This document shows, piece after piece, positions 6,860 to 63,652 of a DNA stretch of 64,000 nt (its first letter is position 1; the number at the start of each line of letters is the position of its first letter). Under the pieces are notes generated by a model. That model searched no databases and was not told where the DNA came from. It saw only the letters and a program-made list of their open reading frames with translations. The translations under genes were made by a program, and so were the position numbers. This DNA is from Octopus sinensis (Eukaryota), in the NCBI RefSeq assembly GCF_006345805.1, contig NC_042998.1:94922001-94986000 (forward strand), given 5' to 3'.

Positions 6860-7246
6860 CGCAGTCATGGCTGTGTGGTAAGAAGCTTGCTTTTCAACCA
6901 CATGGTTCTGGGTTCAGTCCCACTGCATGGCACCTTGGGCGAGTGTCTTCTATAACCTCAGTCTGACCAAAGAATGTGAGTGGATTTGGCAGATGGAAAC
7001 TGAAAAGAAGCCCAAATATATATGCATGTTTATTTTTACATGTCTGTTTTTGTCCCTTCCCCTCCCCACAATCACTTGACAACCGATGTTGGTGTGTTTA
7101 TGTCCCTGTAACTTAGTGGTTCAGCAGAAGTGCCCAATAGAATAAGTACCAGGCTTACAAAGAATAAGACCTGGGGGGTTGATTTCTTTGACTAAAAGGC
7201 AGTGATCCAGCATGGCCACAGTCAAATGACTGAAACAAGTGAAAAA
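6860..7246 (+). mobile_element. tRNA-derived SINE, family B
   Basis: A-box-like TGGCTGTGTGG, B-box-like GGTTCAGTCCC, 3' end ccagcatggccacagtcaaatgactgaaacaag. Many copies, e.g. 9310-9685(-), 27221-27590(+), 34470-35070(-, interrupted), 35270-35470(-), 47090-47240(-), 48640-48790(-), 50420-50760(-), 58568-58948(+). Confidence 0.8.
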
Positions 7247-7565
7247 GTAAAACATGAGCAATGCAGAAAATTACAGAGAACCGAAGTTCTGTGAAGGAAG
7301 AACTGATAGGAGGTGTATGGAGTAACCATTCAAAGTTGAGTAGTGAAGGGTATATTACTGTCTGTATTTGATGGCATAAGAGATACAAAGGGCATATTTG
7401 ATGCACCTTGATTTCAGGGACACATATTCAGGAAACAGGTTTTTAGTGCATTAAAGCATGTAAAATAGGCCCACCTTCACATATAGGATCAGGGGAAATT
7501 TTTGAGACATTTTTTTCTTTCAAAAAAAAAGGTGGGGGTCTCATATGCCATCAAAAATGGGTGTA

Positions 7566-14784: not shown

Positions 14785-16012
14785 CTTAGTAAGTCAAAGG
14801 ACCCCACAGTAGTTTCTTTGTTTGCTCAATATAGCTAAAGTATATTCTGAAAATAAATGCAACACAGAACTGCAAAATGGTATTGGAACAATACTGAGAC
14901 AAAGAAATGCAGCAGCACCAAGGTAGACATTAAACAGAAATACTATATTGGTACTGTGTTACAGTTCCATATGGTAGTGACTTTAACAGTAACGCTTATG
15001 TCAAGCAATAACAAAAGTATTTTAGACAAGCAAATGAAGAACCCTCTACAGGGACACTCAAACTGCTTGGAATAGCAGTCATGTTTCTTTTAAATCACAC
15101 CTCACTATCTTAAAATGAGAAAGGACATATTAGATAATATAGTTTGAGATAAACTGTTTGAATAAAATACAGGTTGGTCATGACTGGAGTGCTTTTGAAC
15201 ATAAATCTTCTAAATCAGGGCTCATCTGGTATTAAATAACAACAGTCAAAGTATTGTAAGGGGTAAAGGTAGTGGTGGTGGTGGTGGTGGCAAGGGAATA
15301 TCTGCCTCAATAGAATTAACATCAATATTGGAAGGATAATATATCTAGGGTGTGGCAACATCACAGCAGAAGCAACAGTTGTAGTGATGGGGTAACATGT
15401 CTCACTAAAAGCAATATTAGTGGTGGGGTAACATGTCTGAGTAGAAGCAATAGTAGTAGTGGGATAACATTTCTGAATAGAAACAATAGCAGTAGTGGGA
15501 TAACATGTCTCAGTAGAAGTAACAGTAGTAGTGTTGGGGTAAAATGTCTCAGTACTTTGACTGTTGTTGTTGTTTAACCAGAGAACAGAAGATTTGTGAC
15601 CAAAAGAATTCCAGTCATGACCATCCTGTATTTTATTCAAACAGTTTATCTAGGACTATATTATCTAAAGTGTCCTTTCTCAATTTTAGATAGCAGGGTC
15701 TGATTTAAAAGAGACGTGGTTGCTATTTCAAACAGTTTGACTGTCCCTGTAAAGGGGCCTTCATTTGCATGTCTACAATGCTATTGTTATTACTTGACGT
15801 AAACATTACTATTAAAGTCACTACCATATGGAACTGTAGCACAGTACCAATATAGAATTTCTGTTTAATGTCTACCAGAGTGCTGCTGCATTTATTTCTA
15901 ATACTATTATTCCAATACTATTATTTCAGTTCCATGGTATATTTATTTCCAGAAAGTACTTTAGTAATATTGAGAAAACAAAGAAACCTTTAAGTGGCTG
16001 TCTGACTTGCTA
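14785..16012. repeat. Inverted duplication, ~440-470 bp arms (14785-15256 vs 15550-16012), around a minisatellite spacer
   Basis: E.g. ggtagacattaaacagaaa / tttctgtttaatgtctacc, acagttccatatggtagtgactttaa / ttaaagtcactaccatatggaactgt, aacagtcaaagta / tactttgactgtt. Confidence 0.9.
15260..15550. repeat. 36 bp minisatellite block (agtagtggtggggtaacatgtctcagtagaagcaac-like)
   Basis: About 7 tandem units; reads (S)TETCYPTTT repeats on the minus strand. Confidence 0.85.
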
Positions 16013-29217: not shown

Positions 29218-29670
29218 ATTATATGAAAAAATGCAAGCAAGAGAAATAATATTCTTAAGATTATAAATATGGAAAAGTACAGGACAAGTTATTACAATTG
29301 GAAAAGTTCGGGACAAGTTATTACATCTGTTAAAGTACAGAACAAGAAAATTTCTACTTAAAATATTGCAGCTAAGGATAAAATTTCAAATAAGATATTT
29401 AGATTTAGAAAATATTAGCTTTTATTAAAGTTAAAAATGTTATTACAAGTTATCACTTCTATTTGTTATTACTTGTGACTTCTATCAAAAATATAAAATA
29501 ACTCAATTAAAATATTTGATCCTTAGCTGCAATATTTTACATAAAAATTTTCTTGTTCTGTATTTTACTAGATGTAATAACTTATCCTGAACTTTTCCAA
29601 GTATAATAACTTGTCTTGTACTTTCCCAGTACAGAATATTATTTCTCTTGCTTGCATTTTTCCATGTAAT
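29218..29670. mobile_element. Foldback-like MITE with ~160 bp terminal inverted repeats
   Basis: aaaatgcaagcaagagaaataatattct / agaatattatttctcttgcttgcatttt; aaaatattgcagctaaggat / atccttagctgcaatatttt; internal ~28 bp subrepeat ggaaaagt.c.ggacaagttattaca. Confidence 0.85.
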
Positions 29671-31619: not shown

Positions 31620-34600
31620 TGTATTTACATGTGTAACTAACAACATACAGTTTTATCTATCTGTTACCAGTGGTACTAAATATGTGCTTAAAAACATGGA
31701 ATGTCTTTAAACATAAACTAAATTAAAAGGTAAAAGAAATAAGGGCATTTCTAAGATATAATTAATAAATGATTGCCATGGATGATATCAAAATGAGTGA
31801 GGATAACAATGAATATATCTTTGTATAACACACAGCGAAGAAGTAGAAAGGAAATTGAGATTTAGCACAAACTGCAAGTGCACACAACGTGCAGTGGGGG
31901 ATATTTGGTAGACTAACAGGGAAACAGAACTTTAGTTGCACAGAAATTAATAACAACATAAGCAGCCATGTAATAAAGAATCCAGATTACTTGGATGAGT
32001 CACTGGTTGCAGTAGATAAGTTATGTTAGCAAAATGACATATTCTATACTAGAGGTGAAGCTAGCGATAACTTTAGATATTGGATAAAAGAACTATTTCT
32101 GTCAGTAACAATGGGTACCCCTACTCTCTCCCTCTCTATTTGTTTGTCTGTCTGTCTCTGTCTTTTCTTAAATCTCTTTAAATTCTAATGAGTATTTTTG
32201 TGGGTAACAAAATGCAAAGGATATACAGCAATGAGCGAAAAATATGTTGAGTTTAGTCCATTGAGATACATAATGTTAATACGGAAAGACTGAGTATAAA
32301 TGAGTTGAAAAAGTAATTAGGCATAAAATGTACCAAGAGATTTATAGAGAACTGACAACTTACACATATCAAGTGAAAGAGCACCATGATATGAGGTGAA
32401 AAGAACCTGTAGTAGAATGAAGAACTGGGAAGAAAGACAAAGTGGTTCTTAGAACACTACATCTTACAGTTCAGATGATGCATGAGACAACACGAAGAAA
32501 TGCTGTATTTCTAACTTGTCAACAAATAGCACGGATAATTAGACATTAAAAATGTGATGCTGATTGGGATGCTTATCATCATTAACAAAGATAATAATGA
32601 AGATGGATGATGTTAATGTGGTTAGCAATGACTAATACTGATGATAATGCCTGGCATCAGTGTTGATTTCATTAATAATTAGTTAATATAGACATGTTGA
32701 CATGGGTGATGTGAGCAATACTGTTGTTAATATGATTGATAAACAAGTAATAATTCATGTTGATACACTTAGAATATATATTTGACTTGCAAAAACAGTA
32801 CTGTCAATGACAATATTACAGAAGTACAATGATACATTGTACTTCTGCAATATCATCTACACATGATAAACAAGTCATGAATGGTTTGCTATTTCTACTT
32901 GTTGCTGTGTATATTCTCCAATACATTATATAATACTGTGTATAACACACAGCCTAAGTTATGGTGTTCTCTGTAACACGCTGTCTCTGAATAACAGCAT
33001 GACACTGTCTTACATTATATACTGTATGGTATATGAAACTGTTTCCGTAGCATGTACTGTATGCTACAGCTAGTGATAAACAGACTTTGATCAGTGCACC
33101 GTATAATTAAGGATTTGCTATAACCTATCTGTAACATAGACTGGATAAACACAGCGTGGTACATGTAAGATTGTCTCAGTATATTTATAGAATATGAAAC
33201 AAATTAAATATTGTTTTCTTTTTCTTTTCTTTTCACCAACAGGTAAGCCTTGTTTGAGCTGACCTATGACCAAATGGCATTCCAGCAATGACCACTACTT
33301 TGTTTTCCAAAATATAATGCAATTATCACATGGTCCAATAAGTCATATTTTTACTAAGATGGTGGCGTATGATTTAGCTGCTATTGCTAGTAGGTTAAGC
33401 AACTATGTAGAGGCACTCAGTGTGAACACACTTTTCTGGCCTAGTATTTGAGATATTGTTAAACACACTTGTCTGTTGTCTGGCCCAGCTTCACAGTTCT
33501 AGTACAAGAAGACTCAATGAGGTTTTTTTGTTTCATTACAAACACACACACTTTCAAAGATACTAATGCATTGTTCCACAGTACTCTATGACCGTTGTTT
33601 AATATAAAGTGGTGAGTAGATAGACTGTTCACCGTAGCACAAGCAAGTACTGGATGTCATGAAAAACATGAGCTGGTTGTTTACTGGTAGCGCTATTTGA
33701 GGTGAGCTTGGATGCATGTGTCTAGGGTGAGTGTTGTGCGCGTGCAAATATACGATGGAATGTTAAACTACAAACACAAACATACACACACACACACACA
33801 CACAAACAGACATTGCACAAACATGTAAATACACAAACACAGTGGTATTTTCTATTTCTAGCCCACAGCAGCCTCAAGAATATATGTCACTTTCCATATA
33901 ACTGAACAGAACATATACTTATTTGTATAAATTTGCCTGCCTGCCTACCTACCTACCTATCTACCTATATATATACACACACAATACATATACACACATA
34001 AATATATCTATGTGAATGTGTGTGTTTGTGTTAATCATTGTCCTCATAGTAGAACACTTTGGAACACAAATACAGAAAATTTACAGTAAAAACAAACAAG
34101 AATTGCCAGGATATCGCGCCAATAGCTGTGCATAACCATGATTAAAAAAAAAATATCAAATGTTTCAGGCATGTATCTATAGATTTATATTACATATATA
34201 GATACTTAAATATTTATTTATTTCACAAAGAAACTTATTCTTTGTTCAGCTCTGGAATTCTATCAATTTCTTACAGATTATTTCCAGTTCCTTTCTCTTC
34301 TATGGATTCTTCCAGTTAATTTAACTAGTTCTGCAATGTGTGTACAAATATAGCAAAAAAAAAAAGAAATTACAAGGAATCTGAATGCCCACATGTAGAA
34401 ATATAGATGTTATCATACATGCAAAGTGGCAACCTTTGGCATTGTATGGTTGTGTGTGCATATATTCTTTTATTATTTTATGTGTTTCAGCCATCTGACT
34501 GTGGTCATGCTGGAGCACTGCCTTAAAGGGTTTTAGTCAAAGAAATTGAGCCTAGGACTTATTCTTTGTAAGCCTAGTGCTTATTCTATCAGTCCTTTTT

Positions 34601-36705: not shown

Positions 36706-37978
36706 CATCATCATCATCATCATCATCATTTAACGTCCGCTTTCCATGCTAGCATGGGTTGGACGGTTCAACTGGGGTCTGGGGAGCCCGAAGGCTGCAC
36801 CAGGCCAGTCAGATCTGGCAGTGTTTCTACAACAGGATGCCCTTCCTAATGCCAACCACTCCGAGAGTGTAGTGGGTGATTTTATGTGCCACCGACACAG
36901 GTGCCAGACGAGGCTGGCGAACGGCCACGCTCGGATGGTGTTTTTATGTGCCACCGACACAGGTGCCAGACGAGGCTGGCGATCGGCCACGCTCGGATGG
37001 TGTTTTTATGTGCCACCGACACAGGTGCCAGACGAGGCTGACGAACGGCCACGATCGGATGGTGTTTCTTACGTGCCCACAGCACGGAGGCCAGTCGATG
37101 CGGTACTGGCTACGGCCACGTTCGGATGGTTTTCTTGTGTGCCACCGGCACTGGTACCGCAAAGATACAAATTCCATTGATGTTCATCTATTTTGATTTG
37201 ATTTGATTTGATTTTCACTTGCCTCAACAGGTCTTCACAAGTGTCACAAGAAGGAATGTATGCACAGGTGAACTGACAACGTCCCAGGTAGGGGCCACGG
37301 GTTATGGCCTGACTAGTCTTGCCGGGTCTTCGGATGATGATTTTATGTGTCTCCGACACAGGTGCCAGATGGATGGTGTTTGCTACATGCCCACAGCACG
37401 GAGGCCAGTCGATGCGGTACTGGCTACGGCCACGTTCGGATGGTTTTCTTGTGTGCCACCGGCACTGGTACCACAAAGATACAAATTCCATTGATGTTCA
37501 TCTATTTTGATTTGATTTGATTTGATTTGATCACTTGTCTCAACAGGTCTTCACAAGTGTCACAAGAAGGGAGGTATGCACAGGTGAACTGACTACGTCC
37601 CAGTTAGGAGCCACGGGTTATGGCCTGACTAGTCTTGCCGGGTCTTCGGATGGTGTCTTTATGTGCCACCGACACAGGTGCCAGATGAGGCTGGCGAACG
37701 GCCACGATCGGATGGTGTTTGCTATGTGCCCACAGCACGGAGGCCAGTCGATGCGGTACTGGCTACGGCCACGTTCGGATGATTTTCTTGTGTGCCACCG
37801 GCACTGGTAACAAAGATACAAATTCCATTGATGTTCATCTATTTTATTTTGATTTTCACTTTCACTTGCCTCAACAGGTCTTCACAAGTGTCACAAGAAG
37901 GAAGGTATGCACAGGTGGACTGACTACGTCCCAGGTAGGGGCCACGGGTTATGGCCTGACTACTCTTGCCGGGTCTTC
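36706..37978 (-). repeat. RTE 3' UTR: three 62 bp units plus three ~315-335 bp higher-order units
   Basis: atgtgccaccgac at 36884, 36946 and 37008; gccacgggttatggcctgact at ~37293, 37610 and 37941. Confidence 0.9.
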
Positions 37979-39576
37979 TCACGCACAGCATACTTCCATA
38001 GGTCTCGGTCTCTAGTCATTTCCTTGGTGAGACCTAAAGTTCGAAGGTCGTGCTTCACCACCTCGTCCCAGGTTTTCCTGGGTCTACCTCTTCCACAGGT
38101 TCCCTCAACTGCTAGGGTGTAGCACTTTTGCACACAACTATCTACAGCCATTCTCGTCACATGACCATACCAGCGCAGCCGTCTCTCTTGCACACCACAA
38201 TTGACGCTTCTTAGGTTCAACTTTTCTCTCAAGGTACTTACACTCTGACGATTATGAACACTGACATTACACATCCATCGGAGCATACTGGCTTCATTTC
38301 TTGCAAGCTTACGCATATCCTCAGCAGTCACGGCCCATGTTTCACTACCATGTAGCATGGCTGTACGTACACATGCATCATACAGTCTGCCTTTTACTCT
38401 GAGCGAGAGGCCTTTTGTCACCAGCAGGGGTAAGAGCTCTCTAAACTTTGCCCAAGCTATTCTTACTCTAGCAGTTACACTTTCAGCACACCCACCCCCG
38501 CTACTGACTTGGTCTCCTAGGTAGCGGAAGCTATCAACTACTTCTAGTTTGTCTCCCTGGAACGTGGTAGAAGTTGGTCTCTGCACATTTCCAGTGTTTA
38601 TTGCTCCTGAGCATCTGCCACAGACAAAAACTATTTTCCTAGTTAGCCTTCCTTTGACATTGCTGCACCTCTTATGTGTCCATAGCTTACACTTGGTGCA
38701 CCTTATAGAGTTTCTACCTACACCTTTTTTACAGATCGAGCAGGGCCATCTACCTGAAGTCGTTTGTGATTGGTCCACCTTCCTACTTATTAGGACTTTG
38801 GTTTTGGCTAGGTTGATTCTAAGGCCCTTCGATTCTAATCCTTGTTTCCACACCTGAAACTTCTCCTCCTGTTCTGATAGTGACTCAGCAATTAGAGCAA
38901 GGTCGTCAGCATAGAGGAGCTCCCAGGGGCATCCTGTCTTGAATTCCTCCGTTATTGCCTGGAGGACTATGATAAATAGGAGGGGACTGAGGACTGAACC
39001 TTGGTGGACCCCAACCTCTACCTGGAATTCTTCACTGTACTCGTTGCCAAGCCTCACCTTACTAGCAGCGTCTCTGTACATGGCTTGCACAGCTCTCACT
39101 AACCATTCATCTATCCCTAGTTTCCTCATTGACCACCAGATAAGGGATCGGGGGACCCTGTCAAAGGCTTTCTCCAAGTCAACAAAAGCCAGGTACAAGG
39201 GCTTGTCTTTGGCTAGGTATTTCTCCTGCAGCTGTCTTACCAGGAATATAGCATCAGTAGTACTTTTCCCTGGCACGAACCCAAACTGCATATCATCTAA
39301 GTTAACACTCTCTCTAATTAGTTGGGCTATAACCCTCTCCGTAACCTTCATTACCTGATCCAGCAGCTTGATGCCTCTGTAGTTATTTGTATCTAGGGCG
39401 TCGCCTTTACCTTTGTAGCAGTTGACTATTATGCTGCTACACAAGTCATTGGGTATGACTCCCTCGTGTATCACCTGGTTAACTATACGGGTGACTAAGC
39501 TATAGCCGACACCACCAGATATTTTGAGCATCTCTGCAGTGATACCTGATGGGCCTGGGGCTTTCCCTGTTTTCAT
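37960..39576 (-). CDS. RTE LINE reverse transcriptase (C-terminal 538 aa of ORF2) with inserted C4HC3 finger
   Basis: KAPGPSGI, NYRGIKLL, QFGF, AFVDLEKAFDRV, GVHQGSVLSPLLF, LLYADD, FRYLG, HGSETW, RLRWYGHV and RGRPRKTW motifs. Confidence 0.97.
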   Translation of the reverse strand: MKTGKAPGPSGITAEMLKISGGVGYSLVTRIVNQVIHEGVIPNDLCSSIIVNCYKGKGDALDTNNYRGIKLLDQVMKVTERVIAQLIRESVNLDDMQFGFVPGKSTTDAIFLVRQLQEKYLAKDKPLYLAFVDLEKAFDRVPRSLIWWSMRKLGIDEWLVRAVQAMYRDAASKVRLGNEYSEEFQVEVGVHQGSVLSPLLFIIVLQAITEEFKTGCPWELLYADDLALIAESLSEQEEKFQVWKQGLESKGLRINLAKTKVLISRKVDQSQTTSGRWPCSICKKGVGRNSIRCTKCKLWTHKRCSNVKGRLTRKIVFVCGRCSGAINTGNVQRPTSTTFQGDKLEVVDSFRYLGDQVSSGGGCAESVTARVRIAWAKFRELLPLLVTKGLSLRVKGRLYDACVRTAMLHGSETWAVTAEDMRKLARNEASMLRWMCNVSVHNRQSVSTLREKLNLRSVNCGVQERRLRWYGHVTRMAVDSCVQKCYTLAVEGTCGRGRPRKTWDEVVKHDLRTLGLTKEMTRDRDLWKYAVREKTRQE

Positions 39577-41014
39577 GCTTCTAATTGCCTTATCTACTAA
39601 GGAACTGTTAACTCGGATTGCTGGTCCCTCTGTTGGGTCGACATTCGGCAGACTCTCTTTATCCCATTCATTTTCTCATTCAGCAACCTTTCATAGTGGC
39701 TCTCCAAGCCTCTCTCTTTGCATCCTCATTTAGCGCAAGTGAACCGTCATCCTTGCGAACACACTTCTCTCCTACCACGTCACGTTCTCTCTCACACACT
39801 GTCTTGCAACACGAAATACCTCAAGTCTTTCATCCTCACGGCGCAGGACATTGGCAAATTTTCCTTATCTGCCCCCCTCTGGCTAGATAGACCTGTCTCC
39901 TGGCTTCCCTTCTGGCAGTCTGATACACTTCCCTGCTACCACCGTTCTTCCAGGCCTTCCAAGCCTGTTTCTTTGTCTAATAGCCCTGTCAACAATATTG
40001 TTCCACCACCACGTTTTTGGGTCTTAAGGGGACTTTGTACCAGCCACAGATCTGGTCAGCGGCTTTCAGCAGGTTGTCCCTCAGAAGCGTCCAGTTGTCT
40101 TCTACCCCCTGCGTAGCTATACTCCCTTCCATTTCGTCTAAGGCTTCAAATAACATATCTCTAAATCTCTGTCCATTCGCAGGGTCTTTAAGCTTCCAGA
40201 CCCTTCTTCTCCATGTTGGTCGTCTTCTAGTCGCCCTCTTAGTCCTGATCCTAAAGTCACTAACTACCAGTCTATGTTGTGGGGTGCATTCTTCGCCTGG
40301 GAAGGTTTTGGCATTTATAAGCAGCCATCTTTCCTTTTTCTGCAAGGATGTAGTCGATTTGGCTAGTATGCCGGCCCGATCGGTAGGTGACCAGGTGGCT
40401 TGTCGGTTTCCTGAAGTTAGTGTTGCAAACCATAAGACTATTCGCATCGCAGAACTCCAGCAGCCTGGTTCCCTCCTCGTTGCGGGAACCATAACCGTAG
40501 CCTCCATGCACGCCATGGAAGCCCCCAGCACATCGTCCAACATGCCCATTGAAGTCACCAGCCACAAAGAGAAGGTCCCTGTCGTTCGTCAATGATGTGG
40601 TCTGCAGTAGGGTGTCATAGAAACAGTCTTTCTGTCCATCAGGTAGCCCTGGCTGAGGGGCATAGGCCGATATAATAGTTGCTAACATGGAGCACTAATC
40701 TAATCTTAATTATTCTGTCACATACTCTGACTACCTCGATTACCTTATCTACCCATTTTTCGGCGATAAGCATGCCCACTCCCCCGACCCCGTCAGTATT
40801 CCAGCCCAGAAAAATCTTGTACCTCTGTCCTTTACCTGTGAGGAACCTAGCAGAACCTCCTCTCCACCTCACTTCTTGAATGCAGCATATATCCACACAC
40901 CTCCGTTCAAGCAATTCAACGATCTCGCCAGATCTGCCTTTCAGTGTGCCAACGTTGAGGGTGCCAACCCTGAGGGTGTGGGTGGTGGTGGTATTGGGCC
41001 TAGTTTAGCGTCAT
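39577..41014 (-). pseudogene. RTE ORF2 N-terminal part: APE endonuclease and linker, frameshifted in this sequence
   Basis: LRVGTLNVGTL, DICCIQEVRW, IISAYAPQ, AGDFNGHVG, SQIDYIL and QHRLVV motifs are spread over frames (ORFs 40639..40914, 40272..40688, 39989..40567). Confidence 0.92.
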
Positions 41015-42312: not shown

Positions 42313-43482
42313 ATCATCATCATCATCATATCATTAACGTCCGCTTTCCATGCTAGCATGGGTTGGACGGTTCAACTGGGGTCTGGGGAGCCCGAAAGCT
42401 GCACAGTCCAGTCAGATCTGGCAGTGTTTCTACAGCTGGATGCCCTTCCTAACGCCAACCACTCCGAGAGTGTAGTGGGTGATTTTATGTGCCACCGACA
42501 CAGGTGCCAGACGAGGCTGACAAACGGCACGCTCGGATGGTGTTTTTATGTGCCACCGACACAGGTGCCAGACGAGGCTGGCAGACAGCCACGCTCGGAT
42601 GGTGTTTTTTTATGTGCCACCGACACAGGTGCCAGACGAGGCTGGCAGACGGCCACGCTCGGATGGTGTTTTTATGTGCCACCGACACAGGTGCCAGACG
42701 AGGCTGGCAGACGGCCCGCTCGGATGGTGTTTTTATGTGCCACCGACACAGGTGCCAGATGAGGCTGGCAAACGGCCACGATCGGATGGTGCTTGTTACG
42801 TGCCACAGACGGAGGCCAGTCGATGCGGGTACTGGCTACGGCCATGTTCGGATGGTTTTCTTATGTGCCACGTGCCACCGGCACTGGTACCACAAAGATA
42901 CAAATTCCATTGATGTTCATCTATTTTGATTGTTTTGATTTGATTTGATTTTCACTTGCCTCAACAGGTCTTCACAAGTGTCACAAGAAGGAAGGTATGC
43001 ACAGGTGGACTGACTACGTCCAGGTAGGGGCCATGGGTTATGGCCTGACTAGTCTTGCCGGGTCTTCGGATGGTGTTTTTATGTTGCCACCGAACAGGTG
43101 TGCTAGATGAGGCTGGCGAACGGCTACGATCGGATGGTGTTGTATGTGCCCACCGCACTGACTACGGCACTGATGGATTTCTTGTGTGCCACAGGCACTG
43201 GTACCACAAGATACAAATTCCATTGATGTCATCTATTTTGTCTATTTGATTTGATTTGATTTGATTTTCACTTGCCTCAACCGGTCTTCACAAGTGTCAC
43301 AAGAAGGAGGAAGGTATGCACAGGTGGACTGACTAGTCTTGCGGGTCTTCGGAAGGTGTTTATGTGCCACCGACACAGGTGCAGATGAGGCTGGCGAACG
43401 GCCATGATCGGATGGTGTGTGTTACGTGCCCACAGCACGGAGGCCGGTCGATGCGGAAACTGGCTACGGCCACGTTCGGATG
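42313..43482 (-). mobile_element. 5'-truncated RTE copy consisting only of the repetitive 3' UTR
   Basis: Near-identical to 36706-37978 but with five 62 bp units; (GAT)n tail; TA tracts on both sides. Confidence 0.9.
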
Positions 43483-43528
43483 AGGTTGTTATGTACGTAT
43501 ATATATTATATATGTATGATATATTAAC

Positions 43529-43560
<32 letters not shown>

Positions 43561-43644
43561 GTACATAGATATATATATATATATATATGTATATAATTTA
43601 GTATGTATATATAATATGATATATATATTATAGATATATATATG

Positions 43645-43683
<39 letters not shown>

Positions 43684-43702
43684 TAAATATATGTATATAT
43701 AT

Positions 43703-43740
<38 letters not shown>

Positions 43741-43748
43741 TATATAAT

Positions 43749-43786
<38 letters not shown>

Positions 43787-43818
43787 TAAATATATATATA
43801 TGTTATATATAGCTATAT

Positions 43819-43861
<43 letters not shown>

Positions 43862-43863
43862 TA

Positions 43864-43932
<69 letters not shown>

Positions 43933-43975
43933 GTATTATATATATATATAGTGTGTATATATATATAGATATATA

Positions 43976-44016
<41 letters not shown>

Positions 44017-44229
44017 TGTATATAATACATATATATATATGTATATATATACATATATATATATAATGAATATATATACATATATATAATATATGTATAT
44101 ATATACATATATATATATATGTATATATATACATATATATATATAATATATAGATTATATAATATATATATATATAATATGTATATATCTATATATATAT
44201 AGGTTATATATGTATATATATTATATATG

Positions 44230-44269
<40 letters not shown>

Positions 44270-44414
44270 TAGATGTATATATATATATATATATGTATAA
44301 TATATATTATATATGTCTATATGTATATATATATATATATATTATATATATATATATATATGTAATATATATGTAATATATATATGTATATATATGTATA
44401 TAGATATATATATG

Positions 44415-44460
<46 letters not shown>

Positions 44461-44475
44461 ATATATATATATATG

Positions 44476-44528
<53 letters not shown>

Positions 44529-44554
44529 TATTATATAGATATATATATATATGT

Positions 44555-44585
<31 letters not shown>

Positions 44586-44634
44586 GTATATATATATATG
44601 TATATATATGTATATATATATATGTATATATATG

Positions 44635-44781
44635 ATATATAAATATAACGATTTAGGAGTGACCTGTTGGGGTCACTCCTAAATCGTTATATTTATATAT
44701 TTAGTCGATGACTATTTTCTCTTTTTCACCAGGCCGCTGGTGCGATAAATTCTATTGAATTTTTTGCTACCCTAAATTGAC
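44635..44781 (+). mobile_element. Short fold-back element in (TA)n: perfect 30 bp inverted arms + 81 nt tail (Penelope-like terminus?)
   Basis: 44635-44664 is the exact reverse complement of 44671-44700 (loop tgttgg); unique tail to 44781. Confidence 0.65.
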
Positions 44782-44907
44782 TATATGTATATATATTATA
44801 TATATATATTATATATATATGTATATATATGTATATATATATAATGTATATATATGATATATATATATGTATATATATGATTATATATATATGTATTATA
44901 GATGTAT

Positions 44908-44960
<53 letters not shown>

Positions 44961-45049
44961 ATATATATAATATATATATGTAATATATATAGATATATAT
45001 GATATACTATATATATATATATGTTATTATATTATATATATTATATATG

Positions 45050-45083
<34 letters not shown>

Positions 45084-45127
45084 TGTAATATATGTATATA
45101 TATATATATGTATATATATATATGTAT

Positions 45128-45178
<51 letters not shown>

Positions 45179-45329
45179 AATATATATATATATGTATATA
45201 TATATAGATATATATATACTATAATATAATATATATATGTAGATATATATATATATATGGATTATATATATATATATATGTGTATATGATATATATATAT
45301 TTATATATATATGATATATATATAATATA

Positions 45330-45376
<47 letters not shown>

Positions 45377-45437
45377 GTATTGTATATATATGTATATGTA
45401 TATATATATATATGTATATATATATGTATATATAATT

Positions 45438-45468
<31 letters not shown>

Positions 45469-45569
45469 GTATATATATATAAGTATATATATATATATGT
45501 ATAATATTATGTATAATAGATATGTATTATATATATAGTATATGTAGTATACATATATATATATATTAC

Positions 45570-45612
<43 letters not shown>

Positions 45613-45953
45613 ATATATATATGTTATATATATATGTATATATATATGATAGATGTATAATATATATATATATGTATATATATATATGTATATATATAGT
45701 ATATATATATGTGTATATAATATGTATATATATATGTATATATATATGCATATATATATGCATATATATATATGATATATATATACATGCATATATATAT
45801 ATGCATATAATATATGCATATATATATAGCAATATATATATATGCATTATATATTATATATGCATATATATATATATGCATATATATATATGCATATATA
45901 TATATGCATTTATCTATATATAATATATATATATTATATGCATATATAAGATA

Positions 45954-46014
<61 letters not shown>

Positions 46015-46192: not shown

Positions 46193-47056
46193 CAGGGTAG
46201 GTAGAAAGTAACTAGGCATTAGAAATTGCTTATAGAATATTTAGTATCACTGAAATCATGACAGAAACATTTTTTAAACAGACAGCACTAATGGGGATTT
46301 CTTATTTTCTTACTGTTATATTTCTTGTTTTTCAGATGGCCAGTTGCTTGACTGTTCAGAAGCAAGCTAAGATAGCAGCATGCTATGTAGTGTGGAATTC
46401 CATTGTTTTGGTTCAGAGATGGTGGCGTGCATGCAACACTATGTCTGGAGACAAGAAAAAGTGTCATGCAGAGCCGATGACCATGGGCTCTGTGAATGAT
46501 GCAAGAAGTGGCTGTCCAACCACATCCCAATCAGCAGAGTATGTGGCGACAGTGCAGGAAATGTTTAATTGCAGCCTGCAAAAATCAACACGTCAAGCAA
46601 CTCGTGAAAGTGGACTAACAAGACACACAATACATACGGTGTTGCATAAAGAATTGAATTTTCGTCTGTGGAAACCCCATTGCATGCAGGAACCAAAACC
46701 TGAAGACTGTGACTGCAGAAGTCCAGAACCCCAAGAAGTCTAGATTTCACTCATTGTGATTTTTACCTGTGGGGTTACACAAAAGAGGAGGTGTACAAGA
46801 CAAAACCTCACACACTGGAGGACTTGGAGACACGGATTCAGGAGGTTCTCAATGATATCCCAGATGATGTCCCTTGGAAGGATGTTTATTCCATCCCTAG
46901 AGGTTTGAGGAAACTGGTTGATGCCACAGGTGCTAAAGTTTTACTTTCATTTTTCCATGTAATAAAGAATGTGTATCAGTTGTTTCAATAAATTTGTAAA
47001 AGGAATATAGATTTTTTTACCAATATTTAATATCTATTTACTGTTCACCCACCCTG
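46193..47056 (+). mobile_element. Internally deleted Tc1/mariner-superfamily transposon
   Basis: TIRs cagggtaggtagaaagtaa / ttactgttcacccaccctg. HTH region (GSVND..RSGCP, KSTRQ..RESGL..TIHTVLHKEL) joined directly to PRSLDFTHCDFYLWGYTKEEVYKTKP; the first catalytic residues are deleted. Confidence 0.85.
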
Positions 47057-47712: not shown

Positions 47713-50700
47713 AGCACCCATAACCTCTTTGTTGGACCTCCAAGACTAGTTGAAAGGGGAAAAAGAAATCGAACCCATGACTTATGGATTTCCATAGTGG
47801 ACAGCATCTCATCAAGATACAATGTTATCCAACAGAGTGGTCTCCACTAAAGTTGCCAAAGGGCCAGGAGACTGTATAAACCATGACTTACATCACCAAC
47901 CAAGACCATCTTTTGAATAGACATCCTTCCAACTCAGTTTCACTCACAAATTGTAAGTCGACATGAGACTACCGTAGAAGACACTTGCCCAGTTAGAAAT
48001 ACCCATGTATCATCATCATCTTCACCACCATTTAACATCCACTTTTCCATGCTTGTAAGGGTCAGGTGGAATTTGGAGAAGCAGATTTTAATCAGCCAGC
48101 GGCCATTTCTGTCATCGACCATCACATGCTTCCAAGCAAAATAATATTTTCCCATAGCTAAACATGGATGAGTAGAAATGAATAACCTTGCTTGTATGAT
48201 GACGACACTCACTTGCAGCCATCACATAATGTCTAGGCAGAGTTACACACATATACATACACATACTTTTGTTGTACCAAAGGAAAGATTTATGCTGATG
48301 TTAATAACACACACACTGGTTCAATTCCACTCCTTTATTATTCATCAATTGGTTTAATATGAGTCTAACAGATCATTTGTTTAATTTGTTGGTTAAACAA
48401 TCAGTCATTTGCTTGGTTTTTTTTCTTTCTTTTTTTTTGTCAAAGTCTTTTTGTTGCTATTTGCAACTTGTACAGTGACTTCCCTCATAGTCCGTTACGG
48501 AGGCCACGTGAGTCAGTCTGAGACCTTGTTGCTTTTATGTGCGTAGAATATGGTAAAGTAGGTGTGTGTGTGTAGGATTATCTGCGAGAGTTCACAGAAG
48601 CATTCACATCCTTACATACATTACATACATATACTACAGGCTTCTTTCAGTTTCCATCAACCAAATCTACTCACAAGGCTTTGGTTAGCCCAAGGCTATA
48701 TAGTAGAAGAAATTTGCCCAAGGTGTTGTACAGTGAGATTGAACCTGAAAGCATGTGGTTAGGGAAGCAAGCTTTTTAATCACACTTAAAAACATGCCAA
48801 ATCAGTTTAACTATACTTTTTACTGCCACATGTTGAATCAAGCTTTGTGAATGAAAGTGGGAAGAAAGAAACTCTGGAGGAAGAAAGTTTATTAAATAGG
48901 TGGTCTTCAGTGGCAGAACTAATCTGGTTTAATACCATCACCTGGGCCTTGGGTGACTTTAGTGGAGACTTCTCTGTTGGATAACATTTGCACTGTTTCA
49001 AAGGTTACCACATTAAAATCTCACATGCTTCAACTCTGACATTATTAGGTATTAACATTTTCAATATTATCAATAGCAATCTTGGATTTTGGATCATCAT
49101 AATCATCATCATCACCACCACTACCACCACCATCATATTCTTCTTCTTCTTCTTCTTCTTCGTCGTCATCATCATTGCTGCTGCCACCACCATCATCTTC
49201 ATCAATTAACATCTATTTTTCCAAGCTTTGCATGAGTCAGGTGGAATTTGTTAAGGTAGATTTTTTTCGTGATGCTTGTTTACAACCATCATATGATGCC
49301 AAAGAAAGAGTTCACACAGACACTTCCATACATTACACACACACACAAACACACACACGTGCGTGCACGCACACACACACACTCACACACATACAGCAGG
49401 CTTATTTCAGTTTCTGTCTACCAAATCTACTCACAAAGTTCTGACTAGCCAAGGACTATAACAGAAAGAACTTGTCAAAGGTGGGCTTGAACTTGAGAGT
49501 ACAGGGTTAGGAAGCAAGCTTCTTGCCTATGCTTTCAAAATTTAGTTTCATCATCATCATCATCCAGTATTTTAAATCCAGGTTTTGTCCCCTTTAACAG
49601 GGGTGGCCGGATCTACCTCAATGCCATAGCATTTGTTGTTCTTTATTTCATAAGTGACGAAATGGCCAAATGGACAAAATATTACTAAAAGCTCAAGAAT
49701 TGAATTCCAATCTCAAGCAGAACTTTGGTTAGGATTTAATTTCCAGTGCCTTGATTCACCTGTTTATAGGGAAATGACACTACACAGTCTGAGAATGTTA
49801 CCTGTGAGATTCCTCTAATTTGCTTAATCATACTCAATATAATGTGCTTCTACAAAACATGGTCGCATGTATATTTTTCTGCTTATACTCTCTTGGTGTG
49901 GATAGAGTTATGAGAACTTTACAATCTAATAAATGTAATTAAAACTAATTAGAAAACTTTAATTACAATTTCTTCATATCTATAAGAGTGATTATAGTAG
50001 TTAAACAGTCATTAATTTACAAGAATGAAACACGTTTTGTGAATTAATTATTTTGTACTATTCTGGCATGTTTTAAATATTTTATGATATAGCATAATAA
50101 TTTCAAAGACAATATAGATTTTACAATTTTTATATACTAAACACTTCTCAAAAATTTTAGTCTTTCCTAATGAGTGAATAGAACTACAGAAAAGATATAT
50201 ATATATATATATACATATATATATACATACATATATATATATATTATATGAAGAGTACTTGTTTAAAGATACATATAAAAATATACAAATTTGCACATTT
50301 TAAAAAGTCTTAATTCTTCAGAAAAATTACAACTGTGTCACAATGCCAAGAAGAATGACTTTTCTGATCACATCAACAACCATCCAATTGTTAATATCTC
50401 AAAGTTTTTTTTATTCTCTGACTTGTTTCAGCCATTAGACTGCTGGCATGCTGGAGCACTGCCTTGAAGCATCCAGTTGATCAAATCAACTCCAATATAT
50501 TAATAGTCCTCTTTTTGTCAAACTGCTATGTTGTAGGAATGTAAACAAACCAACACCATTTGTCAAGCAATTAGAAGCAAACATAAACACAAATAAATAC
50601 ACATATATATATGAGATAGGCTTCCACAGTTTCCATCTACAAAGTTTCCTTACAAGGAAATCATCAGCTCAGGACTATTTGCTGAAGGTGTCCTACAATG

Positions 50701-56279: not shown

Positions 56280-56471
56280 ATTGAATGAGAAAGTGAGTGT
56301 TCAACCTCAGTACATAGGGTTGAGGATATGTCTTTTGTTGAAACTGAAGCTTAAGGTCTGCGTGTGTCTCAAGTTTCATGCCACTGAGTTCTTCAGGTGA
56401 AACTGGCCTGAAGATTGCAGTGGGTGAAACTTGATTTATGAGGCACACTCTAATCTTCAGTTTTGATAAAG
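56280..56471 (-). mobile_element. Decayed fold-back element with a hammerhead-like core in both arms
   Basis: Inverted arms ~56332-56397 and 56407-56471 (aaactgaag/cttcagttt, caagtttca/tgaaacttg, tcttcagg/cctgaaga); each reads CTGAAGA-N11-12-GAAAC-TTGA; abuts (CA)n. Confidence 0.6.
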
Positions 56472-60909: not shown

Positions 60910-60958
<49 letters not shown>

Positions 60959-60968
60959 TTATTATATA

Positions 60969-61029
60969 GAAGGAGCTTCTACAGGACTAGAACTGTTTCA
61001 TTCAAGAGAAATCTTCAGGAAGCTCCTTC
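60969..61029 (-). ncRNA. Type I hammerhead ribozyme motif
   Basis: GAAGGAGCTTC-CTGAAGA-TTTCTCTTGAAT-GAAA-CAG(TTCTAGTC)CTG-TA|GAAGCTCCTTC: 11 bp stem I, intact core, GUA triplet. Confidence 0.82.
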
Positions 61030-61032
61030 AGG

Positions 61033-61081
61033 GCTTCCTGAAGATTTCTCTTGAATGAAACAGTTCTAGTCCTGTAGAAGC
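61033..61081 (+). ncRNA. Type I hammerhead ribozyme motif (opposite arm)
   Basis: GCTTC-CTGAAGA-stem II-GAAA-CAG...CTG-TA|GAAGC; predicted cleavage after 61076. Confidence 0.78.
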
Positions 61082-61165
61082 TCCTTCTATATAATAAATT
61101 AATTTTACTCTGCTATGTATTGAGTACCTTATTTACTGTGGTTAACCCCGAATCAACCCGGGACC

Positions 61166-61219
<54 letters not shown>

Positions 61220-61664
61220 TACATATATATACATATATATATAAGAGTATATACATAGAACCATATATGAAATATAAGAAACTAAATATATATCTCGCTT
61301 AACAATATAAAAGAACATGTATGTATGTATGCATGCATGCATGTGCAAACATACAATGAAAAGTATAATCATAGCAGAAGAACTAACTATAAATATAAAA
61401 TCAACAAAATGGAAAAACCAACGATATAACTGAAGATGATGAGACAAGAATATAACCAAACATAAAGAACCATTAGGCTTCAACAAAGATAAAGAACCAT
61501 CAACATAACTAAAGTTAAATGAACTAGAATGTAATCAATGATCAACAAACAAGAATATAACCAAATACGAACTACCTAGAATGAAACAATGAGGAAACCA
61601 GAACATAACTGAAGATGAGAAGCTAGAAATGAAAGTAGACAATAATATATATACTAAATAATTA

Positions 61665-62387: not shown

Positions 62388-63423
62388 GGCCGTTCGCCAG
62401 CCTCATCTGGCACCTGTGTCGGTGGCACATAAAAACACCTTCCGAAGACCCGGCAAGACTAGTCAGTCCACCTGTGCATACCTTCCTTCTTGTGACACTT
62501 GTGAAGACCGGTTGAGGCAAGTGAAAATCAAATCAAATCAAATCAAATCAAAATAGACAAAATAGATGAACATCAATGGAATTTGTATCTTGTGGTACCA
62601 GTGCCTGTGGCACACAAGAAATCCATCAGTGCTGTAGTCAGTGCGGTGGGCACATGACAAACACCATCCGATCGTGGCCGTTCGCCAGCCTCATCTAGCA
62701 CCTGTGTCGGTGGCACATAAAAAACACCATCCGAAGACCCGGCAAGACTAGTCAGGCCATAACCCATGGCCCCTACCTGGGACGTAGTCAGTCCACCTGT
62801 GCATACCTTCCTTCTTGTGACACTTGTGAAGACCTGTTGAGGCAAGTGAAAATCAAAACAAATCAAAATAGATGAACATCAATGGAATTTGTATCTTTGT
62901 GGTACCAGTGCCGGTGGCACGTGGCACATAAGAAAACCATCCGAACGTGGCCGTAGCCAGTACCGCATCGACTGGCCTCCGTGCTGTGGGCACGTAACAA
63001 GCACCAACCGATCGTGGCCGTTTGCCAGCCTCATCTGGCACCTGTGTCGGTGGCACATAAAAACACCATCCGAGCGTGGCCGTCTGCCAGCCTCGTCTGG
63101 CACCTGTGTCGGTGGCACATAAAAAACACCATCCGAGCGTGGCCGTCTGCCAGCCTCGTCTGGCACCTGTGTCGGTGGCACATAAAAAACACCATCCGAG
63201 CGTGGCCGTTTGCCAGCCTCGTCTGGCACCTGCGTTGGTGGCACATAAAATCACCCACTACACTCTCGGAGTGGTTGGCGTTAGGAAGGGCATCCAGCTG
63301 TAGAAACACTGCCAGATCTGACTGGACCGGTGCAGCTTTCGGGCTCCCCAGACCCCAGTTGAACCGTCCAACCCATGCTAGCATGGAAAGCGGACGTTAA
63401 ATGATGATGATGATGATGATGAT
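62388..63423 (+). mobile_element. 5'-truncated RTE copy, 3' UTR only
   Basis: Reverse complement of the 42313-43482 copy, with shared diagnostic indels; four 62 bp units; (GAT)n tail running into (TA)n. Confidence 0.9.
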
Positions 63424-63438
63424 ATATATATATATATA

Positions 63439-63652
63439 TGTAGGTCCCGGGTTGAGTCGGGGTTAACCACAGTAAATAAGGTACTCAATACATAGCAGAG
63501 TAAATTAATTTATTTTATAGAAGGAGCTTCTACAGGACTAGAACTGTTTCATTCAAAAGAAATCATCAGGAAGCTAGGTCATCTAGCTTCCTGATGATTT
63601 CTTTTGAATGAAACAGTTCTAGTCCTGTAGAAGCTCCTTCTATAAAATAAAT
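63439..63652 (-). mobile_element. Fold-back hammerhead element, copy 2
   Basis: Reverse-oriented relative of copy 1; perfect 70 bp arms (63508-63577, 63583-63652), loop gtcat; TA repeats on both sides. Confidence 0.8.
63585..63635 (+). ncRNA. Type I hammerhead ribozyme motif with canonical CUGAUGA (mirrored on the minus strand at ~63525-63575)
   Basis: AGCTTC-CTGATGA-TTTCTTTTGAAT-GAAA-CAG(TTCTAGTC)CTG-TA|GAAGCT. Confidence 0.82.

What the first reader, a model, noticed from the sequence alone, without database searches (positions are those of the whole stretch)
60957..61168. Microsatellite-embedded fold-back element carrying a hammerhead ribozyme on each strand
Seen: a 212 bp non-coding island in (TA)n made of perfect 67 bp inverted arms plus a ~69 nt tail. 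Each arm folds as a type I hammerhead: stem I (up to 11 bp on the minus strand), CUGAAGA, short stem II, GAAA, stem III CAG/CUG with a CTAG-containing loop, and a GUA cleavage triplet. Established: minimal type I hammerheads mark the pseudo-LTRs of Penelope-like retroelements and non-autonomous retrozymes, and Penelope insertions often have inverted termini plus a short tail. Inference: this is a tiny ribozyme-bearing mobile element. Transcription from either strand meets a self-cleavage motif, while a read-through RNA could instead form a perfect 67 bp dsRNA that sequesters the ribozyme. Caveats: the first pair of stem II is a non-canonical U-U, and no Penelope RT/GIY-YIG ORF is in this window.
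Basis: partly seen in the sequence, partly recalled or inferred. Interest (0 to 1): 0.85.

Follow-up and report, generated by a model that had tools for sequence, protein, structure and literature searches.

The report
Penelope retroelement stub with mirrored hammerheads
The hairpin and its two mirror-image hammerhead motifs are really in the sequence, but they are most likely an ordinary, very numerous footprint of a Penelope-type jumping gene (two short end pieces joined head to head in a TA repeat), and the ribozymes would be locked inside the hairpin rather than cutting RNA from both strands.

Summary
Confirmed: perfect 67-bp inverted arms, a 9-nt spacer and a 69-nt tail in (TA)n, with a type I hammerhead motif in each arm. 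Public runs hold thousands of distinct contigs of this family. The central junction is copy-specific, many listed junctions cut through the ribozyme, the tail is optional, and a few copies continue upstream into one shared sequence. That layout (inverted 5'-truncated pLTR, pLTR, tail, TA target) is the published footprint of endonuclease-bearing Penelope-like elements; opposite-strand hammerhead pairs were reported in 2014. The parent ORF was not found, so an autonomous or retrozyme parent stays open. The idea of cleavage from either strand is not supported. On both strands the antisense arm is transcribed first, and forcing the hammerhead fold costs about 80 kcal/mol. The motif lacks the G10.1-C11.1 pair and matches no Rfam hammerhead model. 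One of three putative RNA runs shows an A-to-G site in loop III, a weak editing hint. This scan has reported the same architecture in other octopus DNA. New member of a known kind; low interest.

The parts
60957..61023 (-). Copy 1, inverted arm: tail-less pLTR end piece with hammerhead motif (C3 61018, N17 60980)
61024..61032 (.). Copy 1, copy-specific junction. It repeats the 11-mer that follows the predicted cut (61019 and 61077) and a 7-mer of the inverted arm (61013 and 61026), as microhomology template jumps would
   Evidence: depth 0.4-1.1% of arm peak
61033..61099 (+). Copy 1, direct arm: stem I 5' strand 61033-37, core 61038-44, stem II region 61045-56 (U.U then 3 bp), GAAA 61057-60, stem III 61061-63/61072-74, loop III 61064-71, predicted cut after 61076, stem I 3' strand 61077-81
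61100..61168 (+). Copy 1, tail: optional 69-nt extension, ending in a predicted 4-bp GC stem with an AC-rich loop
   Evidence: (AT)n loose ends behind 61099 in 4 of 4 runs and behind 61103 in 2
60948..60956 (.). Left (TA)n flank, within a (TA)/(TG) microsatellite; inferred target
61169..61243 (.). Right (TA)n flank; inferred target
63440..63507 (-). Copy 2, tail
63508..63577 (-). Copy 2, direct arm with hammerhead motif (C3 63569, N17 63531); N7 = U
63578..63582 (.). Copy 2, 5-nt junction; reads as 5 further upstream bases of the inverted arm
   Evidence: similar letters in the upstream loose ends (compared by eye)
63583..63652 (+). Copy 2, inverted tail-less arm with hammerhead motif (C3 63591, N17 63629), followed by (AT)n

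Best explanation
This is one of two copies in the window, and of very many in related public runs, of a head-to-head pair of identical short arms with a tail on one side in a TA repeat, and it is most likely a heavily 5'-truncated insertion made by the enzyme of an endonuclease-bearing Penelope-like element (PLE). Inferred steps: (1) the PLE RT/GIY-YIG protein nicks AT-rich DNA in (TA)n. (2) Reverse transcription starts inside the RNA at one of two sites, 92 nt or 23-27 nt downstream of the hammerhead cut site, giving an end with tail and an end without. (3) Copying stops early, in or just upstream of the hammerhead. (4) The second arm is copied from the same template or from the first arm, and the two are joined head to head with small microhomology jumps, which makes the junction private to each locus. 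The hammerhead is cargo from the parent's pLTR, where it would probably work as a dimer through its near-palindromic stem III, perhaps with protein help. In the stub it is predicted to be locked in a 67-70-bp hairpin whichever strand is read through; that hairpin would be an ADAR substrate.
For: Shown here: arms are identical within each copy but differ between copies at 3 sites, each change mirrored in both arms. The spacer holds 1.1%, 0.6% and 0.4% of peak depth in runs X1, X2, X7. 22 distinct head-to-head joints stand among the listed rows (15 of 49 rows of table 5, 12 of 24 of table 5c), 0 of 22 keeping C3 in both arms. There are two right ends: (AT)n behind 61099/61103 and behind the tail. 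Arm depth is 1.6-2 times tail depth in X6. A minority of contigs run on upstream into one shared sequence in three studies: X1 47 of 8,823 (agreement 0.63), X6 5 of 1,983 (0.93), X10 1 of 1. Read by hand, it has one frame open for about ten codons that stops at a TAG abutting stem I, as the end of a PLE ORF would. Stem III homodimer -14.8 against -2.4 kcal/mol as a monomer hairpin; read-through hairpin -131 against -51.4 with the hammerhead forced. Literature: inverted 5'-truncated copy plus optional tail and microsatellite bias (PMC8557442); head-to-head palindromic junctions (PMC3846280); opposite-strand minimal hammerhead pairs from truncated PLEs (PMC4209133); two internal RT start sites, nicks on both strands of AT-rich DNA and a protein-assisted ribozyme, with the far start 85-92 nt past the cut by my subtraction (PMC11167929).
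Against: No RT/GIY-YIG ORF was linked to the family: no genome is held, and Pfam found no GIY-YIG in 150 of 505 window frames. The ten-codon reading is short, done by hand, and one source consensus has low agreement; a differing upstream sequence in X20 (2 contigs) has no stop there. The tail (69 nt) is longer than the 30-40 nt described. The joint table lists only skips relative to this copy, so '0 of 22' is biased, and 10 of the 32 listed pieces (X1, X7) cross the centre with only 11-14 gaps, so junctions near this copy's are common too. Junction symmetry is marginal (9 of 22 within 4 nt, permutation mean 5.5, P=0.04; Spearman 0.05), so snap-back and two-cDNA joining cannot be told apart. 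Stem II lacks G10.1-C11.1 and has 3 bp, unlike the PLE consensus. Cleavage is untested. Summed contig depth is no copy number.
Confidence: 0.85

Rival explanations
1. Variant of the best reading: the template is not an autonomous PLE but a longer non-coding retrozyme unit (circular or tandem RNA) mobilised in trans by a PLE enzyme; the stubs are its truncated insertions. This is included in the 0.85 above; the figure here is its own share.
For: Few contigs extend upstream; no ORF was found; retrozymes are argued to be non-autonomous PLE derivatives (bioRxiv 10.64898/2026.07.22.740005); earlier notes list several retrozyme families in this genome (unchecked).
Against: No head-to-tail repeat in the window; no non-TA continuation past the tail among the 12 loose-end rows shown of 39; the upstream continuation reads like an ORF end.
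Confidence: 0.3
2. One reading: a self-contained fold-back ribozyme element that moves as a unit and uses its two hammerheads as a two-way cleavage or sequestration switch.
For: Both window copies keep two whole cores; one joint (61004 to 61054) has about ten times the depth of the others in X1 (1,135 against about 80-290), which could be a multiplied fold-back; mirrored changes in both arms also fit inheritance of whole hairpins.
Against: The two window copies have different junctions; the spacer is at most 1.1% of peak depth; many joints destroy both cores; the antisense arm always comes first and the hammerhead fold costs about 80 kcal/mol.
Confidence: 0.08
3. A MITE or foldback DNA transposon inserted at TA, with a chance hammerhead-like motif.
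For: Tail-less arm pairs would look like a TA-flanked MITE; Rfam finds no hammerhead; stem II is non-canonical.
Against: The inverted repeats meet in the centre and one end carries a tail; junctions vary; the strict motif has 0 hits in 40 shuffles; the two copy-to-copy changes inside the ribozyme fall at N7 and loop II, positions hammerheads tolerate (tolerance recalled).
Confidence: 0.04
4. Assembly or library artefact (fold-back chimera).
For: Perfect palindromes can arise in library preparation (recalled).
Against: Two copies with their own mirrored variants; head-to-head joints in contigs of 3 runs from 2 studies.
Confidence: 0.02

Closest known systems
Truncated insertions of EN+ Penelope-like elements: inverted 5'-truncated pLTR + pLTR + tail (Craig et al. 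2021, PMC8557442; Arkhipova et al. 2013, PMC3846280)
   Same: Head-to-head inverted end pieces, palindromic junction, tail at one end only, (TA)n target, strong 5' truncation, hammerhead in the repeat.
   Different: Nothing but the repeat is left; tail of 69 nt rather than 30-40; parent ORF and clade not identified. A canonical hammerhead core argues against Naiad, which is reported to lack one.
Minimal type I hammerheads of metazoan PLEs (Cervera and de la Pena 2014, PMC4209133)
   Same: CUGANGA + H, GAAA, palindromic helix III, AU-rich flanks; pairs on opposite strands about 100-700 bp apart were reported in Schistosoma.
   Different: No G10.1-C11.1 pair; helix II of 3 bp (7-8 bp in the Schistosoma families); helix III longer (3 bp + 8-nt loop); the two cores are only 19-21 nt apart.
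PAc (Poseidon of Anolis carolinensis) in vitro (Frangieh et al. 2024, PMC11167929)
   Same: Two right ends, the far one 92 nt past the ribozyme cut (85-92 in PAc by my subtraction); predicted AC-rich stem-loop near that end; AT-rich target.
   Different: No start codon opening a long frame in stem II here; nothing measured in vitro.
Metazoan non-LTR retrozymes (Cervera and de la Pena 2020, PMC7229834; Li et al. 2026, bioRxiv 10.64898/2026.07.22.740005)
   Same: Short, non-coding, type I hammerhead, likely PLE-mobilised.
   Different: No head-to-tail tandem units at these loci; no circular RNA shown.

Membership tests
EN+ PLE insertion footprint | Inverted 5'-truncated copy adjacent head to head | tested here: met
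   joints
EN+ PLE insertion footprint | Optional tail at one end only | tested here: met
   69 nt, longer than the described 30-40; tail-less (AT)n ends
EN+ PLE insertion footprint | Variable 5' truncation and copy-specific junction | tested here: met
   22 listed joints, spacer at most 1.1% of peak
EN+ PLE insertion footprint | AT-rich or microsatellite target | tested here: met
   4 of 4 window ends abut (TA)n
EN+ PLE insertion footprint | Type I hammerhead motif in the terminal repeat | tested here: met
   (motif only)
EN+ PLE insertion footprint | Full-length relative with RT + GIY-YIG ORF upstream of the repeat | tested here: inconclusive
   shared upstream continuation with a stop codon next to stem I (hand reading); no genome; no GIY-YIG in 150 of 505 frames
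EN+ PLE insertion footprint | Target-site duplication | not testable with these tools
   hidden by (TA)n flanks
Metazoan PLE minimal hammerhead (2014 consensus) | CUGANGA-H and GAAA...NUH core | tested here: met
Metazoan PLE minimal hammerhead (2014 consensus) | G10.1-C11.1 pair | tested here: not met
   U.U in 4 of 4 arms; feature
Metazoan PLE minimal hammerhead (2014 consensus) | Palindromic helix III able to dimerise | tested here: met
   predicted duplex -14.8 kcal/mol with two 2x2 internal loops
Hammerhead ribozyme (functional) | Self-cleavage after N17 | not testable with these tools
   only contigs were available
Rfam hammerhead families | Score at the gathering threshold | tested here: not met
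Metazoan non-LTR retrozyme | Head-to-tail tandem units each with a hammerhead | tested here: not met
   not at either locus; other loci not visible
Metazoan non-LTR retrozyme | Circular monomer RNA | not testable with these tools
   no raw RNA reads listed
MITE | Terminal inverted repeats at both ends around a fixed interior | tested here: not met
   tail at one end, variable centre

The most novel reading that the evidence does not exclude
Each insertion of this family writes its own antisense arm ahead of the ribozyme, seeding the genome with thousands of perfect hairpins that ADAR edits at the A of the loop III palindrome, so the insertion mechanism itself builds a host-operated off-switch for ribozyme dimers; a few hairpins may be re-copied whole as new masters.
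Probability: 0.1. Interest if true: 0.55.

Novelty: new member of a known kind. Interest (0 to 1): 0.2.

Why it matters
Alone it is a transposon footprint. As a family it is a handy natural data set: young, numerous, short enough for one read, with three arm polymorphisms and private junctions. A census could decide how Penelope elements make their inverted ends (one template or two, snap-back or double priming), a step still open after the 2024 in vitro work. Such hairpins may also contribute to the high load of perfect dsRNA and hyper-editing reported for octopus (PMC5625713).

Tried and rejected
No whole genome is held, so copy number and parent could not be read directly. Rfam gave only hairpin-driven miRNA matches below gathering score; these are rejected as chance. 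Exact-pattern scans: the hammerhead pattern gave 0 in metagenome, viral and prokaryote collections. The tail pattern gave 2 metagenome loci and a loose core pattern 45 viral loci; none of the 47 matched beyond 19-31 nt, so all were dropped. No RNA holder is listed on record; 'RNA?' is the tool's guess. RNA ends at 61076: contigs cannot show ends; the one X10 contig spans the site, and X20 shows no step there (ratio 5.0 against 3.5), while X17 falls gradually (12.3 against 3.7); inconclusive. Arm depth relative to tail is lower in X17 and X20 than in DNA; noted, not used, since contig depth is a poor measure. Core conservation across copies could not be tested: the variant table under-reports sites near the junction (N7 is missing although the two window copies differ there), and the tail is about as invariant as the core. 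No covariation test was possible with two full copies. The UAG context of 2 of 3 A-to-G sites (P=0.04) is not counted, because octopus ADAR is reported to have a reduced 3'-G preference. The family's letters were not found in the held supplements of PMC8557442 (one metadata file) or PMC13282606; their consensus libraries and the bioRxiv supplements were not visible and may already hold this family. Weak Pfam hits at 7158-7427 and 34324-34536 were below cut-off and look like chance. The sigma-70 and terminator scan does not apply to a eukaryote.

Full report
Observation. The described structure is there. Arms 60957-61023 and 61033-61099 are fully complementary, with a 9-nt spacer and a 69-nt tail, between (TA)n runs. 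Each arm reads as a type I hammerhead: CUGANGA, a 12-nt stem II region, GAAA, a 3-bp stem III with an 8-nt loop, GUA, and stem I. A strict descriptor gives 4 hits in the window and 0 in each of 40 shuffles. The four hits belong to two copies, for a second copy lies at 63440-63652 in the opposite orientation. Rfam's hammerhead models do not recognise the motif.

Two copies compared. The arms differ between copies at three sites: N7, loop II and one base 3' of the ribozyme. Each change is present in both arms of its copy. The junctions differ as well (9 and 5 nt). In copy 1 the junction repeats an 11-mer found right after the predicted cut and a 7-mer of the inverted arm, which looks like template jumping on microhomology (inference). 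This is also why its minus-strand stem I has 11 bp; copy 2 has 6 in both arms.

The family. No genome is held, so I used public runs. Twenty of 24 listed runs, from 10 studies and five organism labels, hold at least half of the 14 sampled words. Laid contigs numbered 8,823, 1,710 and 1,021 in three genomic-type runs and 98 in a putative RNA run, and 1,983 in a fourth genomic-type run against 4, 1 and 48 in three putative RNA runs. These are not copy numbers, but the family is large and little diverged. The spacer of copy 1 carries 1.1%, 0.6% and 0.4% of peak depth. The listed joint rows (15 of 49, and 12 of 24) give 22 different head-to-head junctions; none keeps C3 in both arms and 3 keep it in one. 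That table shows only skips against this copy, and 10 of 32 listed pieces cross the centre with 11-14 gaps, so junctions close to this one are also common. (AT)n follows either the arm end (61099/61103) or the tail end, so the tail is optional. A minority of contigs continue upstream of stem I into one shared sequence: X1 47 contigs (agreement 0.63), X6 5, X10 1. Read by hand, one frame is open for about ten codons and stops at a TAG next to stem I; two X20 contigs carry a different upstream sequence without that stop. This is a hint of an ORF end, no more.

Ribozyme. The hammerhead fold lies 1.2 to 7.9 kcal/mol above the minimum-energy fold in all four arms, in three of them because a hairpin over the cut site competes with stem I. 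Stem III is predicted to pair far better as a dimer (-14.8) than as a monomer hairpin (-2.4). The one common DNA variant listed between GAAA and the cut site (63542, 7.5% in X6) lengthens the loop palindrome (read by hand). G10.1-C11.1, conserved in PLE hammerheads (PMC4209133), is replaced by U.U. In read-through RNA from either strand the antisense arm is made first; the hairpin is -131 kcal/mol against -51.4 with the hammerhead forced, and prefix folds show pairing before the ribozyme is complete. The two motifs lie on opposite strands and cannot dimerise with each other. Cleavage from these loci is therefore unlikely; it was not tested.

RNA hints. In X20 (RNA is a guess) T>C at 63539, an A>G on the ribozyme strand in the loop III palindrome, reaches 22% (8 contigs) against 0.018% in DNA run X6. 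Two minor A>G sites on the other strand reach 3.5% and 4.4% (1 and 2 contigs), and one contig carries two changes that are not A>G. X9 (4 contigs) and X10 (1 contig) show none of these. DNA and RNA are from different samples, so expressed variant loci could explain it. Editing of Penelope repeats is already reported in lizard, and octopus ADAR has a reduced 3'-G preference (PMC5625713), which removes the context argument. The two window copies carry no editing scar: their arms are fully complementary.

Mechanism. Most likely a Penelope-like RT/GIY-YIG enzyme nicked (TA)n, began reverse transcription at one of two internal sites, stopped in or just upstream of the hammerhead, and produced a second arm from the same template, joined head to head. 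Shown: anatomy, variable junctions, two right ends, matched arms, upstream continuation. Inferred: the enzyme, the order of events, ribozyme activity in the parent. Junction symmetry is too weak to choose between snap-back and double priming (9 of 22 within 4 nt, P=0.04; Spearman 0.05).

Known systems. An inverted 5'-truncated copy, an optional tail and microsatellite targets are standard for EN+ PLEs (PMC8557442, passages; PMC3846280, passages). Opposite-strand hammerhead pairs from truncated PLEs, and low, dimer-dependent activity, are in PMC4209133 (parts 1-2 of 4; supplement passages, file 1 not searchable). Internal start sites, nicks on both strands and a protein-assisted ribozyme are in PMC11167929 (parts 1-2 of 4). 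Retrozymes: PMC7229834 (passages), bioRxiv 10.64898/2026.07.22.740005 (part 1 of 5), review PMC6765202 (passages; Lunse et al. seen there only as a reference). PLEs cover 6.83% of the Octopus vulgaris genome in 190 families, 31 recently active (PMC13282606, passages and supplement rows). I found no description of this particular family in six paper searches, but could not see repeat libraries. The host is called octopus in earlier notes on this genome; I did not test that. Earlier notes of this scan give the same reading for other families; I had recorded that reading before seeing them, and they are not independent support.

Pfam on the 150 longest of 505 non-simple frames found no GIY-YIG; the only RT is a LINE with an AP endonuclease at 37960-41004.

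Verdict. Real feature, correctly linked to Penelope-like elements, but an ordinary truncated insertion rather than a two-way ribozyme device. New member of a known kind, interest 0.2.

Noticed in passing
window 63440-63652: Second copy of the same element in opposite orientation, tail to tail with the first, 2.3 kb away; canonical CUGAUGA core.
   Followed up: yes
window 56335-56470: Degenerate head-to-head pair of hammerhead-like cores (- 56374-56396, + 56408-56429) in diverged inverted arms; possibly an older fold-back stub of another family.
   Followed up: partly
window 37960-41004 (-): Nearly whole LINE with AP endonuclease pieces, a 571-aa RT frame and a weak PHD/C1-like finger; RTE-like by recall.
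   Followed up: partly
window 36875-37155, 42478-42810, 62921-63255: Three arrays of the same 61-63-bp GC-rich tandem unit, each within a longer repeat; the first adjoins the LINE's 3' end.
   Followed up: no
window 46216-46743 (+): 175-aa frame that looks like a Tc1/mariner transposase fragment by recall; no Pfam hit.
   Followed up: no
window 29227-29661: 435-bp imperfect AT-rich palindrome (76%) with 29-bp subrepeats and no hammerhead core; MITE-like.
   Followed up: partly
window 14812-15256 and 15550-15987: Inverted pair of about 440 bp (82%) around a 36-bp minisatellite.
   Followed up: no
window 43498-46014: 2.5-kb degenerate (TA)n array.
   Followed up: no
window 50645-50667 (-): Lone CUGAUGA core followed by a 4-bp hairpin, 50 nt from a short (AT)n; did not pass the strict descriptor.
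   Followed up: partly
window 61068 (loose end in run X17): One contig reads as a variant with stem III kept and loop III changed at 3 of 8 positions (read by hand).
   Followed up: no
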